Positions 3,001-6,000 of a stretch of DNA of 64,000 bases are shown piece after piece; position 1 is the first letter of the stretch; each line of letters opens with the position of its first letter. Position numbers: made by a program. The DNA is from Malacoraja senta (lineage: Eukaryota). The DNA is taken from the NCBI GenBank assembly GCA_038087875.1, contig JAXLNO010001064.1, forward strand, positions 124,001 through 188,000, in the 5' to 3' direction.

Positions 3001-6000
3001 CTGACATATGATGAAAGAATGGATCGACTGGGTTTATATTCACTGAAATTTAGGATGAGAGGGAATCTTATAGAAACGTATAAAATTATTAAGGGATTGG
3101 GCAGGCTAGATGCAGGAAAAATGTTCCCCATGTTGGACGAGTCCAGAACCAGGGGTCCCAGCTGACATCCCAGAGCCGGGGGTTTGTCCCTGTGGAAACT
3201 CACAACATTGTATCTCGGCGTGTGTGGAAATCTAATTCTTTGTTCCATGTCCCTCTCTTTCAGGTTTACATAACAAGACGTACACAGTTTATCGCTCAGT
3301 CACAGATCACAGTGAACTCGACCTGATTTGTGAAGCTTCTCCTGAGCTCAGTGAAACCAAATGGACTTGGAGATCACCACGTTTCCAGAATCAAGAGAAG
3401 GAAATAGCTTCTTCTCACAGGTCTGAGCCGATACATGGCGACAGGAGCTACTTTGGGAATCGACTGGAAACCACAGAGGGAAATGTGAATGGCAAGAATT
3501 TCCATGTGAGGATTGTCCCCGTGCAGTTTGCAGATGCCGGAGTTTACACATGTTCCACAGGATCAAATATACATGTGACCATTGAACTAATCACATTTAC
3601 AGGTAGGAGACTGGATGTTACTACTTTCAAGAAATAAGTTACTGGTGTAGAGTTTCTAATCTGAGTACAGACTGCAATGTCAGCAGAAATTTCCAAGTTT
3701 GAAGAATTATTTTACCTCCACAACCTCCTCTTCAACTTATTTGTATTTTGCTGAACCCAAAATCTGCCCTAAACCAACATTATTGGGAATCACATCAAAT
3801 GTTATTTTCATTTATTTTGCTGAAAACACATTGTTTTATACATAAGAGAGGGAATATGATGAAATGTGATTCACAAAGGTGCAAATGAGCTTCCATCGAA
3901 AATATTTTAAAATCATTCAACTTCTCTTAACACATTCCCCAAGTTTCTTTGACCCCAAACGACCCATCCTAATTTTTGAAGGCTCACTGGAGGCTTAAAA
4001 CTGAGTGTATTTTGTGGAATTTATCGATTAATATTTACCTGGATGAGTGTTGTGGCCAAAACTGTGGCCAGAGACAATGATGTGGGCATTGGTTGCTCTT
4101 TGTATAATTAGTTCAAAACTGTTGTGAATGATTATGGAAAAGACACTTGGAGAGGTACATGGATGGGAAAAGTGCAGAGGGATATGGGCCAAATGTGGGA
4201 ACATATTTTAGATGGAGCATCTTGGTCCGCATGGATGAGTTGGGCTGAATGGACCGAATTGTTTCATGCTGTATGACTATGCCTCTAACTCTTGTTGTGC
4301 AATATAATTTTTACACTTAGAACGCCAGATACTGGTGTCAAAGTACTGAGAAAAACACAACACAATCCAGACAAAATTCATTGTTTTACGATTTTCTTCT
4401 TTCCACAGTCACAACTGAACCATCTGGCGCAGTGACTGAGGGAAGAAAGATTACCCTGACCGCTCTGTGTCCCATGTCACTGATTCAATGAGACTGGTTT
4501 GGATCAATGATGAAGGCAAAGTTGTAGAGGAGAAAAACCTCATGCAAACAAAGCAGGAGGACAATTCTTTGCAGCTGATTATTGCAATAGCTGATGGAAT
4601 AAGAAGGAAATGGACATGTGGTTTGTTTCATCAAAGCACAGCCAAGGTTTTCATTCTATATAATCTGCAGGTGAACAGTAAGTTTCTTAGCTTCTGCTCT
4701 TCGTTATCTCGACACAGAGTTCTTGTCACGTTGCTATTCTTTTTGGATAACTTTTAACATTCCATGTCTTACTGCAAGTAGAGCTCAATCATAGACATTT
4801 CCTTCAAACCTCTTGTCCATGCCTATAAGGTCACTTCTATTGTAAGTAGTCCAGGTCTCTGAAGCACATGGGAGCACATGGATCACTACTGCTGGCAGAC
4901 CACTGACCAAGACCTGTGTTGGCGATCTCATTGAAGGTGATCGGGAATTTCATCATCAATGTCTGTCCTTGTTGATAAGTGTCTCCAGAGGTATGAAAAC
5001 TGGTCCAGTAGTATGAAAACTAGTGTGTCACTGTGAACCTTTTTGTCAGAGGTCAGTATAGTAAGGTGGGCAGCTTGGTGGAAGATCTTTGCCATAACAC
5101 CCAAACTGTGCCCCTTAAAGATCACAAAAGTAGTGAAAATCATCTTACAAATAGTTGTACAAGTTTCTTTACACTGTTCTGATGCTGTAAAACATTACAG
5201 CGGTTGAAGCATCCACAGTAACTTCACCAAAGGCTGCCATGTGAGAACAGAAGATGTGGGGGAGGGAATACTGATGTCTTCACCTTGTCTGACCATGATG
5301 GCTCAGTGGTAGGGTTGCTGCCTTACAGCGCCAGGGACCCGGGTTCAATCCTGAAGGTAAGGAGTTTGTACCTTCGTCCCAGGTTTTCCGGTTTTTTCCC
5401 AAATTCCAAAGATGTACAAGTCTGTAGGTTAATAGGCTTGGTTTAATTGTATGTTGTCCCTGGTGTGTGTAGGATATTGTTATCTGTGGGAATCGCTGGT
5501 TGGTACGGACTCGGCGAGCCGAAGGGCCTGTTTCCGCGCTGTATCTCTAAACTAAACTAAACACGCCCTTTCCTCCCAATCCCACCCATCCGTTAATCCC
5601 TGCCCTTCATGTGGCCCCAAGCCTCGGTGAAAGACATTTTGTACAACGCTGACAGAAGGCAAAGCACTGATCCCTAACAGAGGAAGATCCTGTAAACACC
5701 CAGGCACAAAGAAACAATCTCCACCACACATAGATCAATGAAGAGTCAGTGAAGCACAAAGTGGAAAGTATCAATGTCCCACAGGAACACTTTAATTCCT
5801 CACAGATAATTACATCATCCAACCATAGAATTGTGGAATGGTTGTAGCACAGAAGGTGGCCATTTGACCCATCATATCCATGCTAACTCTCATCCAGTGC
5901 AACTCGCTAATTCTACCCCCTCTCCTTTTGCCATTACATTGCAGCTTTTTCATCACTATATATTTGTCCAATTCTCTCTGGAAAGCCACGATAGAACCCA

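What the first reader, a model, noticed from the sequence alone, without database searches (positions are those of the whole stretch)
4409..4677. Both paralogs carry different frameshifts within about 25 bp of the same D4 exon
Seen: A has -1 nt at 4461/4462, removing the B-strand Cys codon; B has -8 nt at about 60003. All other visible exons are intact in both, and every Ig exon is phase 1-1, so skipping D4 gives an in-frame three-domain receptor. Inclusion gives a truncated TM-less product or an NMD target. Inference: convergent loss of D4, a soluble/membrane splicing switch, or pseudogenisation. The -1 in A could be a sequencing error; the -8 in B is less likely to be.
Basis: partly seen in the sequence, partly recalled or inferred. 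Interest (0 to 1): 0.68.

Follow-up and report, generated by a model that had tools for sequence, protein, structure and literature searches.

The report
Two frameshifted skate immune-receptor gene copies
Two young duplicate copies of a skate immune-receptor gene each carry their own small deletion that breaks the same immunoglobulin-domain exon, most likely an ordinary case of recent gene death in a fast-evolving receptor family.

Summary
Copy A (+, D4 exon 4409-4677) lacks 1 nt, destroying the B-strand Cys codon. Copy B (-, 60078-59817) lacks 8 nt about 19 bp further on. Both lesions are derived: all 114 D4-type domains of 64 relatives keep the Cys. Both give early stops if the exon is included.

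The window is from a skate, not human. The genes belong to an unnamed, apparently elasmobranch-only family: four-Ig modules, a TM segment, and either an ITIM tail or a Lys in the TM.

A and B differ by 3.45% in introns. Exonic indel density equals the intronic density (3 seen, 3.6 expected), so two indels in D4 are not beyond chance (P=0.26). However, A/B differences in Ig exons favour third codon positions (16/27, P=0.005; omega 0.42). The exons were therefore constrained after the duplication, and the lesions are young.

A's last ITIM is degenerate.

Best reading (0.6): recent, independent pseudogenisation or null alleles. D4-skipped isoforms are annotated in two relatives, so a functional D4-less receptor (about 0.2) is not excluded. 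Reads and RNA-seq could not be checked.

The parts
203..547 (+). Copy A, Ig exon 'D1' (second-module type, so possibly D5). It is open, 345 nt, phase 1-1.
   Evidence: Boundaries and AG/GT. 80-86% identity to residues ~431-547 of 8-Ig skate/ray relatives.
1348..1620 (+). Copy A, Ig exon D2, intact, 273 nt.
   Evidence: 92% to P0043.
3264..3602 (+). Copy A, Ig exon D3 (V-set), intact, 339 nt. The read-through ORF after it (GRRLDVTTFKK*) resembles the C-termini of annotated soluble isoforms.
   Evidence: Pfam V-set 1.4e-7, 32.1 bits against a cut-off of 26. 90% to P0005. P0005 and P0047 termini.
4409..4677 (+). Copy A, Ig exon D4 (the finding): 269 nt instead of 270. One T is missing between 4461 and 4462, destroying the B-strand Cys codon. 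Premature TGA at 4489-4491.
8277..8384 (+). Copy A, stalk/transmembrane exon, 108 nt.
   Evidence: 80% to P0045.
9087..9164 (+). Copy A, cytoplasmic exon c2 (EINVTPVPEMSRVAEYMSV...). The preceding exon c1, present in relatives, was not found in A.
   Evidence: 92% to P0045 residues 459-484. Absence of c1.
11547..11603 (+). Copy A, cytoplasmic exon c3 with the first ITIM-like motif (IHYGSI).
13006..13049 (+). Copy A, cytoplasmic exon c4.
   Evidence: donor read as ACT|GTAAGT.
13182..13241 (+). Copy A, last exon. The second ITIM is degenerate (VIYAET instead of IYAQ[IVM]) and one codon is missing relative to relatives.
   Evidence: None of the 33 relatives carrying the motif has this form.
62789..63061 (-). 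Copy B, Ig exon D2, intact.
60813..61151 (-). Copy B, Ig exon D3, intact.
   Evidence: 93% to P0005.
59817..60078 (-). Copy B, Ig exon D4: 262 nt. An 8-nt deletion flanked by a TGA microhomology lies near 60003-60006. Premature TGA at 59986-59984.
55281..55385 (-). Copy B, stalk/TM exon, 105 nt. It is the most diverged 100 bp of the whole A/B alignment and includes a Val->Glu change in the TM.
46913..47011 (-). Cytoplasmic exon c1 on B's strand, 8.3 kb downstream of B's TM exon. An in-frame TAA replaces the Tyr of the family's LY-x-N motif. It may be B's tail or a relic of an older gene.
42891..46911 (-). LTR retroelement (TGTAGTGGC...GCCACTACA ends, 482-bp LTRs, RT ORF). It begins 1 nt after c1's last base. 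No target-site duplication was seen. LTR divergence is 5.4%.
668..8827 (+). Duplicated segment, arm A. It matches 63999-54510 on the minus strand.
   Evidence: Self-BLAST. MAFFT statistics (244/7067 = 3.45% mismatches outside exons).
54510..63999 (-). Duplicated segment, arm B. It carries extra insertions of 258, 793 and 315 bp relative to A.

Best explanation
A and B are two young paralogues (3.45% intronic divergence) of a skate gene. The gene belongs to an unnamed, apparently elasmobranch-restricted family of cell-surface receptors. Members are built from a four-Ig module (once or twice), a TM segment and a tail with two ITIM-like motifs.

Each copy has recently and independently acquired a real, derived frameshift in the membrane-proximal Ig exon. 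A lost 1 nt in the B-strand Cys codon. B lost 8 nt by slippage between TGA microhomologies.

The exon keeps strong canonical splice sites, so the default transcript includes it. It then meets a stop codon well upstream of the TM and tail exons. It should therefore be degraded by NMD, or at most yield a TM-less fragment.

The copies are thus young pseudogenes or null alleles, the ordinary 'death' half of birth-and-death evolution in an immune-receptor cluster. B is further gone than A: no ITIM exons, a stop in the only tail exon on its strand, and a retroelement at that exon's donor.

Shown: the lesions, their derived state, the stops, B's tail defects, and neutral-like indel density. Inferred: NMD, absence of function, and that the lesions are not assembly errors.
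For: 1. The lesions are present and derived, with premature stops in both copies.
2. Small-indel density in exons is 3 in 978 aligned bp. This equals the non-exon density of 26 in 7067 bp, giving 3.6 expected. Overall exon divergence (42/978 = 4.3%) is not below intron divergence (3.45%).
3. B has a TAA in c1 in place of the conserved Tyr, and an LTR element starting 1 nt after that exon with no TSD. No homologue of A's c2-c5 exists anywhere else in the window, at tblastn E<5 and low-stringency blastn.
4. A's C-terminal ITIM reads IYAET. All 33 relatives with the motif have IYAQx or VYAQx, 31 of them with I, V or M at the last place. A also lacks c1.
5. Both lineages carry radical changes at sites invariant in 9 skate outgroup segments. 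In A: D3 Val->Phe and Val->Gly, D4 Pro->Leu. In B: D2 Gly->Glu, D3 Arg->Ser, TM Val->Glu. Polarised counts are 10 A-derived, 13 B-derived and 1 unresolved.
6. No protein in the 5.8-billion-sequence database carries these exons at near 100%. The best are 90-93% for D3 and 85% for D4. So no protein model containing these exons is in that collection.
7. A's missing T is not in a homopolymer. An 8-nt loss is not a typical consensus error (my own knowledge).
Against: 1. A/B differences in the Ig exons still show coding constraint. There are 11 synonymous against 16 nonsynonymous, omega 0.42, binomial P=0.026. 16 of 27 fall at third codon positions, P=0.005. D4 is the most constrained exon (omega 0.24, P=0.021; 8 of 11 third positions, P=0.009). 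Any decay must therefore be recent.
2. Neither copy violates any of the near-invariant family columns tested: 0 of 63 for A and 0 of 37 for B.
3. All visible splice sites are canonical in both copies. D2, D3 and TM carry no frameshift (P=0.087 under the intronic rate).
4. In-frame D4-skipped isoforms are annotated in relatives (P0060, P0024), so a productive minor transcript is possible.
5. Reads, RNA-seq and other individuals could not be examined. A's -1 could be an assembly error.
Confidence: 0.6

Rival explanations
1. Functional D4-less receptors. D4 has become dispensable, and both genes are expressed mainly or partly as in-frame D3->TM isoforms with three (or seven) Ig domains. On this view the lesions sit in D4 because only there are they tolerated.
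For: - All Ig exons are phase 1-1.
- D3->TM isoforms are annotated in Heptranchias (P0060) and Narcine (P0024), 2 of 63 relatives. Skipping of other exons (D2, D3, c1, TM) is annotated too.
- D2, D3 and TM have no frameshifts, 0 conserved-column violations and canonical splice sites.
- Nonsynonymous rates are equal in the two lineages, 8 against 8 in Ig exons.
Against: - D4's splice sites are unchanged and strong in both copies (polypyrimidine-CAG acceptor, GTAAGT donor), so inclusion should be the default.
- D4 shows the clearest past constraint of all exons, so it was not dispensable for long.
- B has no signalling tail, and A's second ITIM is degenerate.
- The annotated isoforms are computer models from genes whose D4 is intact (P0059 against P0060).
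- The exon-versus-intron contrast is not significant (P=0.087).
Confidence: 0.2
2. Assembly or consensus error. One lesion (most plausibly A's -1) or both are artefacts, for instance from cross-mapping of reads between 96%-identical paralogues during polishing. At least A would then be an intact inhibitory receptor gene.
For: - Constraint signatures in D4 and 0 conserved-column violations fit an intact gene.
- The region is a scaffold with two N runs.
- Single-base indels make up half of all A/B indels, 14 of 29.
Against: - The missing T lies between C and G, not in a run.
- The 8-nt loss has microhomology typical of a real deletion.
- The two lesions differ, so copying one paralogue onto the other does not explain them.
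- A has other signs of relaxation: the degenerate ITIM and radical changes at skate-invariant sites.
- B has independent defects outside D4.
Confidence: 0.12
3. Soluble decoy. The frameshifted transcripts escape NMD and give secreted D1-D3 fragments with a short novel tail. These would act as soluble competitors of the membrane receptors, as recalled for the 22-bp-deletion alleles of human KIR2DS4.
For: - Both stops lie before the TM exon.
- The family already has annotated TM-less forms ending after D3 (P0005, P0047) and one TM-skipped form (P0018).
Against: - The stops lie several exons upstream of the last junction, the classic NMD context (established rule, my own knowledge).
- The family can already make soluble forms by read-through after D3, so no frameshift is needed.
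- No expression data are available.
Confidence: 0.06

Closest known systems
Unnamed elasmobranch multi-Ig receptor family (e.g. Leucoraja erinacea LOC129701493 = P0045, Rhinoraja longicauda LOC144591061 = P0044, Amblyraja radiata LOC116978408 = P0013; nurse-shark record V9NJF3 labelled 'obscurin-like')
   Same: - The same four exon-encoded Ig types in the same order, followed by a TM exon and short tail exons.
- 80-93% identity per exon to skate members.
- The same tail motifs: LY-x-N, IHYGSI and VIYAQI.
   Different: - A and B each have a frameshifted D4.
- B lacks the ITIM exons.
- A lacks c1 and has a degenerate last ITIM.
- No protein with these exact exons is in the database.
Null or truncated alleles and pseudogenes of primate KIR genes (the KIR2DS4 22-bp deletion in an Ig exon, the KIR2DL4 9A/10A single-base change, and the KIR2DP1/KIR3DP1 pseudogenes). 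All of these are recalled, not checked here.
   Same: This is a clustered, rapidly duplicating family of paired inhibitory/activating Ig receptors with one Ig domain per phase-1 exon. Small frameshifting indels in Ig or TM exons create null, soluble or exon-skipped variants.
   Different: - The Ig family and the vertebrate lineage are unrelated.
- Here two paralogues are hit in the same exon.
- Whether the lesions are polymorphic is unknown.
Teleost G6f-like (G6fL)
   Same: [quoted passage not shown] The language-model atlas puts 'g6f-like' clusters first (0.94, 191-193 shared features).
   Different: - G6fL signals through an ITAM. Here 0 of 45 tailed relatives have an ITAM pattern. 37 of 45 have two ITIM-like motifs with 34-57 residues between the tyrosines.
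- The profile search found no G6f-named or non-elasmobranch protein.
CD4 / LAG-3
   Same: A four-Ig ectodomain. D3 is V-set. There is a weak sequence hit of D4 to a LAG-3 structure (8dgg, E=0.0025). CD4 clusters appear among the atlas leads.
   Different: - No CD4-specific Pfam model hits at E<=0.01.
- No CxC motif in any of 45 tails.
- The PDB hits are no better than generic Ig, e.g. MHC-I alpha3 at 6e-5.
- This is a multigene family with 8-Ig members and ITIM or Lys-TM pairs, unlike the usually single-copy CD4 and LAG-3 described in PMC10768021 (passage read).

Membership tests
Unnamed elasmobranch four-Ig-module receptor family (LOC129701493-like) | Four Ig exon types in the order D1-D2-D3-D4, followed by a TM exon, with high identity to family members | tested here: met
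   tblastn of P0045, P0044 and P0013 maps D1-D4 and TM collinearly on A, and D2-D4 and TM on B. Per-exon identity is 80-93%.
Unnamed elasmobranch four-Ig-module receptor family (LOC129701493-like) | D4 with a B-strand Cys and an invariant 12-residue spacing to the C-strand Trp | tested here: not met
   All 114 D4-type segments of relatives have the Cys, and 109 match the 12-residue pattern. A's Cys codon is destroyed, and B's spacing is destroyed by the 8-nt loss. A and B are descendants of the family but not intact members.
Unnamed elasmobranch four-Ig-module receptor family (LOC129701493-like) | Cytoplasmic tail with two ITIM-like motifs (xHY[GA][ST][ILV] and xxY[AS]Q[ILVM]) | tested here: inconclusive
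   37 of the 45 tailed relatives have both motifs. A has the first (IHYGSI) but reads IYAET for the second. B has neither exon.
Pseudogene (non-processed, duplicated) | Disabling lesion in the coding sequence | tested here: met
   Frameshifts with premature stops in both copies. An additional TAA in the c1 exon on B's strand.
Pseudogene (non-processed, duplicated) | Neutral evolution: omega about 1, no codon-position bias, exon divergence equal to intron divergence | tested here: inconclusive
   Indel density and total divergence in exons match introns. But omega is 0.42 (P=0.026), and there is third-position excess (16/27, P=0.005). This fits only a recent loss of constraint.
Pseudogene (non-processed, duplicated) | No productive transcript or protein | not testable with these tools
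G6f-like (teleost) | Four Ig-like domains, a TM and a tail with YxN (PMC3528668, Introduction) | tested here: met
   Architecture. [LF]YxN is present in 29 of 45 tailed relatives. In this window the motif's Tyr codon is a TAA.
G6f-like (teleost) | Cytoplasmic ITAM, Yxx(L/I)x6-12Yxx(L/I) | tested here: not met
   0 of 45 tailed relatives match the ITAM pattern. The two tyrosine motifs are 34-57 residues apart.
G6f-like (teleost) | Detectable sequence homology to named G6f-like proteins | tested here: inconclusive
   The atlas lead scores 0.94. The family-profile search returned 119 hits, all elasmobranch, none named G6f. That search scores only word-sharing candidates.
CD4 / LAG-3 | CD4-type domain signatures or a tail motif (CxC for CD4) | tested here: not met
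   Pfam gives only generic Ig models at E<=0.01. 0 of 45 tails have CxC. The LAG-3 structure hit is only E=0.0025, weaker than the MHC-I alpha3 hit.
Skate modular domain immune-type receptors (MDIR; recalled) | Sequence identity to Raja eglanteria MDIR1-5 | not testable with these tools
   The original paper is not in the library, and no MDIR sequence was on hand. No MDIR-named protein appeared among the 63 or 119 hits, which weakly argues against membership.

The most novel reading that the evidence does not exclude
The two lesions mark domain loss in progress. In a receptor family whose Ig exons are all phase 1-1 and are already skipped in annotated isoforms, the membrane-proximal domain has become expendable. 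Two paralogues are then independently being converted from four-Ig to three-Ig modules by 'exon death', while the rest of each gene stays under selection. This would be a caught-in-the-act example of how Ig-domain number changes in immune receptors, as inferred for the three-domain CD4-2 of some ray-finned fishes (PMC10768021, passage read).
Probability: 0.15. Interest if true: 0.55.

Novelty: new member of a known kind. Interest (0 to 1): 0.3.

Why it matters
The finding itself is what birth-and-death evolution of clustered immune receptors predicts: young duplicates that are being lost. It should not be read as evidence for a regulated soluble/membrane switch.

Its practical value is for annotation. 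These two loci should be flagged as probable pseudogenes or null alleles. B's tail should not be joined to the relic c1 exon without evidence.

The wider context is more interesting than the lesions. This is a large family seen only in elasmobranchs in these searches, nearly all of it labelled 'uncharacterized'. Members have four-Ig modules, ITIM-tailed forms and Lys-in-TM forms. My four literature searches for a description found none. That family is a candidate shark and ray counterpart of the KIR, LILR, NITR or LITR systems.

If RNA-seq showed that A and B are expressed as D4-less receptors, they would document domain loss by exon death.

Tried and rejected
1. CD4/LAG-3 identity. This was my first guess from the look of D4. 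I rejected it because hits carry no such names, Pfam is generic only, PDB matches are weak and generic, and no tail has CxC.

2. MDIR (recalled). The paper is not in the library, so this could not be tested.

3. G6f-like. This is an atlas lead. The ITAM criterion fails and no named homologue was found.

4. Long-term decay. A and B showed 0 violations at 63 and 37 near-invariant family columns, so there is no old pseudogene signature. By construction these columns allow relatives at most one exception.

5. Search for c1 in A and for c2-c5 in B. Nothing was found with tblastn at word size 2, listing hits with E below 5, or with low-stringency blastn. The two N runs were left as they are and could hide a short exon.

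6. Structure. AlphaFold2 of the intact relative P0045 with a 34-sequence alignment gave mean pLDDT 49 and pTM 0.36. Only D4 (about 68-84) and the TM helix are credible. I therefore ran no fold search and used the model only to place the Cys in strand B and the Trp in strand C.

7. Foldback assembly artefact or haplotig. I rejected this because the arms differ by 3.45% plus insertions of 258, 793 and 315 bp, and their downstream flanks are unrelated.

8. Rfam and tRNA scans gave only a weak tRNA-like hit inside the LTR element.

9. No complex prediction was run, because no binding claim is made.

10. Literature search for the nurse-shark 'obscurin-like' record returned 0 papers.
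Full report
**What is at the coordinates**

The stretch 4409-4677 (+) is an exon bounded by ...ttccacag| and |gtaagt. Its counterpart lies on the minus strand at 60078-59817. Aligned, the two regions are 96% identical. A lacks one T between 4461 and 4462. B has GACCTGCTCTG there, so the missing T is the first base of a TGC codon. B lacks 8 nt that A has at about 4481-4489, and a TGA microhomology makes the exact position ambiguous. The lesions are about 19 bp apart.

A's exon is 269 nt and B's is 262 nt, so the intact form would be 270 nt, phase 1-1. 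Read from the upstream phase, A terminates after ...ITLTALCPMSLIQ (TGA 4489-4491). B terminates after ...CSVSHVTESGLDQ (59986-59984).

**The larger structure**

Self-comparison shows that 668-8827 (+) is repeated as 63999-54510 (-). A global alignment gives 244 mismatches in 7067 aligned non-exon positions (3.45%). There are 26 small indels (3.68/kb) and larger B-specific insertions of 258, 793 and 315 bp.

The window has two N runs, at 13714-14001 and 22405-22604. They lie between the copies. The tail-to-tail orientation therefore rests on scaffolding.

The arms are too diverged, and their downstream flanks too different, for a foldback artefact or an unpurged haplotig. They are paralogues.

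**What gene it is**

I searched exon by exon.

The D3 exon is a V-set Ig domain (Pfam 1.4e-7). It finds 63 proteins among 204 candidates, all from sharks, rays and skates and nearly all 'uncharacterized'. The best is little skate LOC129701495 (90-93%). The D4 and TM exons are closest to little skate LOC129701493 (P0045) and Rhinoraja LOC144591061 (P0044), at 83-87%. The window is therefore from a skate, not from a human.

A profile of 34 relatives finds 119 proteins, all elasmobranch, the weakest at E=5.5e-86. Nothing else reaches E=1e-3 among the 8000 scored candidates.

Members consist of a four-Ig module, once or more often twice, then a TM segment and a tail. 45 of the 122 fetched relatives end in an ITIM-like xxY[AS]Q[ILVM]. 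37 of those 45 also have xHY[GA][ST][ILV], with 34-57 residues between the tyrosines. 29 of the 45 have an upstream [LF]YxN. Seven relatives instead have a Lys in the TM. The family therefore looks like a paired inhibitory/activating receptor system. Four literature searches for a description found none.

**Exon map**

A (+):
- D1 203-547
- D2 1348-1620
- D3 3264-3602
- D4 4409-4677
- TM 8277-8384
- c2 9087-9164
- c3 11547-11603
- c4 13006-13049
- c5 13182-13241

B (-):
- D2 63061-62789
- D3 61151-60813
- D4 60078-59817
- TM 55385-55281
- c1 47011-46913

All listed junctions have AG acceptors. Every exon that is followed by an intron has a GT donor. All Ig, TM, c1, c2 and c3 exons are phase 1-1.

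A's D1 is of the second-module type, and the window begins 202 nt upstream of it. 'D4' may therefore be D8 of an eight-Ig gene.

**Are the lesions derived?**

Yes. All 114 D4-type domains from 64 of 66 relatives have the B-strand Cys. 109 match a pattern with exactly 12 residues to the C-strand Trp. The five misses are regex misses and show the same spacing by eye.

The AlphaFold2 model of P0045 is poor overall (pLDDT 49). It is usable in D4 (about 68-84), where it puts Cys318 in strand 313-320 and Trp331 in strand 327-332. I ran no fold search on this model.

- B's only tail exon has TAA where relatives have the Tyr of LY-x-N.
- An LTR retroelement (42891-46911; TG...CA ends, RT ORF) starts one base after that exon, with no target-site duplication.
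- Its LTRs differ by 26/480 (5.4%). That is not less than the A/B intronic divergence (Fisher P=0.03). The insertion is thus at least as old as the duplication, and c1 may be a relic of an older gene rather than B's tail.
- A DIRS-like element (48634-52507) lies between B's TM exon and c1.
- No counterpart of A's c2-c5 exists elsewhere in the window.
- A lacks c1, which keeps the frame. A c1-less isoform is annotated in a relative, P0061.
- A's last ITIM reads IYAET, a form seen in none of 33 relatives with the motif.

**Is two-in-one-exon more than chance?**

At the intronic indel rate, 0.99 indels are expected in 270 nt, so P(>=2)=0.26. Over all exons 3 were seen against 3.6 expected. The absence of frameshifts in D2, D3 and TM has P=0.087. 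None of these is significant.

**Selection**

Total exon divergence (4.3%) is not below intronic divergence, but the pattern within exons is not neutral. For D2+D3+D4 there are 11 synonymous and 16 nonsynonymous differences, giving omega 0.42 (P=0.026). 16 of 27 differences are at third positions (P=0.005). D4 alone has omega 0.24 (P=0.021) and 8 of 11 differences at third positions (P=0.009).

Neither copy violates any near-invariant family column (0 of 63 for A, 0 of 37 for B). My own rough arithmetic suggests about three violations would be expected over D2-D4 in both lineages under full neutrality since the duplication.

Polarised amino-acid changes are balanced, with 10 A-derived, 13 B-derived and 1 unresolved. 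Several hit sites that are invariant in the skate outgroups.

Together this says the Ig exons, D4 included, were kept by selection for much of the time since the duplication. The frameshifts are recent.

**Interpretation**

The most economical reading is recent, independent inactivation. That means young pseudogenes or null alleles, in a cluster that evolves by birth and death, with B further decayed than A. I give this 0.6.

Skipping is in frame, and D3->TM isoforms are annotated in two relatives (P0060, P0024). Against it:
- the D4 splice sites remain strong
- D4 was the most constrained exon
- B has no signalling tail
- those isoforms come from genes with an intact D4

An assembly error, mainly for A's -1, gets about 0.12. 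The base is not in a homopolymer, and 7 of 14 single-base A/B indels are likewise outside runs. A soluble-decoy function gets about 0.06.

**What stayed unchecked**

- Raw reads, RNA-seq, other individuals, and orthologous genomic DNA.
- The content of the two N runs.
- Exons upstream of the window, including B's D1.
- Supplementary files of the papers.

**Papers**

- PMC10768021: search listing, start of abstract, and five passages.
- PMC3528668: listing, start of abstract, and twelve passages.
- PMC3031540: listing only.
- The MDIR paper and the KIR examples are recalled from memory and were not seen.

Noticed in passing
window 8277-8384 (+) and 55281-55385 (-): The stalk/TM exon is the most diverged 100 bp of the whole 8-kb A/B alignment: 13 mismatches in 97 bp, against 0-1 per 100 bp just upstream. 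Poisson P=2.7e-5. It also has a complex in-frame indel (108 against 105 nt) and a Val->Glu change in B's TM. This could be a micro gene conversion from a third paralogue, or selection on the TM.
   Followed up: partly
relatives P0064, P0065, P0057, P0078, P0092, P0094, P0096 (not in the window): Seven relatives have a different C-terminus with a Lys inside the TM (e.g. YLLIKLAVALGL) and no ITIMs, while 45 have ITIM-like tails. The family thus looks like a paired activating/inhibitory receptor system. It is restricted to elasmobranchs in my searches and unnamed in the sources.
   Followed up: partly
window 13714-14001 and 22405-22604: Two N runs lie between copy A and copy B, so their relative orientation and distance depend on scaffolding. 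The first run is only about 470 bp downstream of A's last exon.
   Followed up: no
window 42891-46911 (-): LTR retroelement with TGTAGTGGC...GCCACTACA termini, 482-bp LTRs (26/480 mismatches) and an RT ORF (45633-46262). No target-site duplication was seen, which hints at recombination between two elements. It abuts the c1 exon's donor. A weak tRNA-like Rfam hit (32.9 bits) lies at 43492-43563 (-), but ARAGORN calls nothing.
   Followed up: partly
window 48634-52507 (+): DIRS-like retroelement: a long gag-like ORF, RVT_1 (4.3e-20), and an ORF with a phage-integrase N-terminal SAM-like domain. It lies between B's TM exon and c1.
   Followed up: partly
window 22757-24409 (+): A 550-aa open frame of tandem C2H2 zinc fingers (Pfam zf-H2C2_2, 7e-132), built on an 84-bp repeat (23120-24229, 13 copies). 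It starts just after an N run, in the GC-rich centre of the window.
   Followed up: partly
window 3603-3637 (+) and 60812-60601 (-): Reading through the D3 donor gives ...TGRRLDVTTFKK* in A and a longer open frame in B. The annotated isoforms P0005 (ends ...LITVTGR) and P0047 (ends ...LITVKGRRQNV...) terminate in just this way, so TM-less forms by intron read-through may be a family trait.
   Followed up: partly
window 63184-63514 (-) against about 1177 (+): A 53-bp minisatellite in the D1-D2 intron is about 258 bp longer in B than in A.
   Followed up: no
window 16019-16443 and 32439-33124: Further tandem arrays: a 20/40-bp unit x 10-22 giving Pro/Thr/His-rich open frames, and a 34-bp unit x 20 at 96% identity. 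Their significance is unknown.
   Followed up: no
window 56225-57018 (-): A 793-bp insertion in B's D4-TM intron, relative to A, is an interspersed repeat. It has other copies at 18199-18442, 38196-38787 and 40860-41103. This insertion is not present in A, so it arose after the duplication or was lost from A.
   Followed up: no
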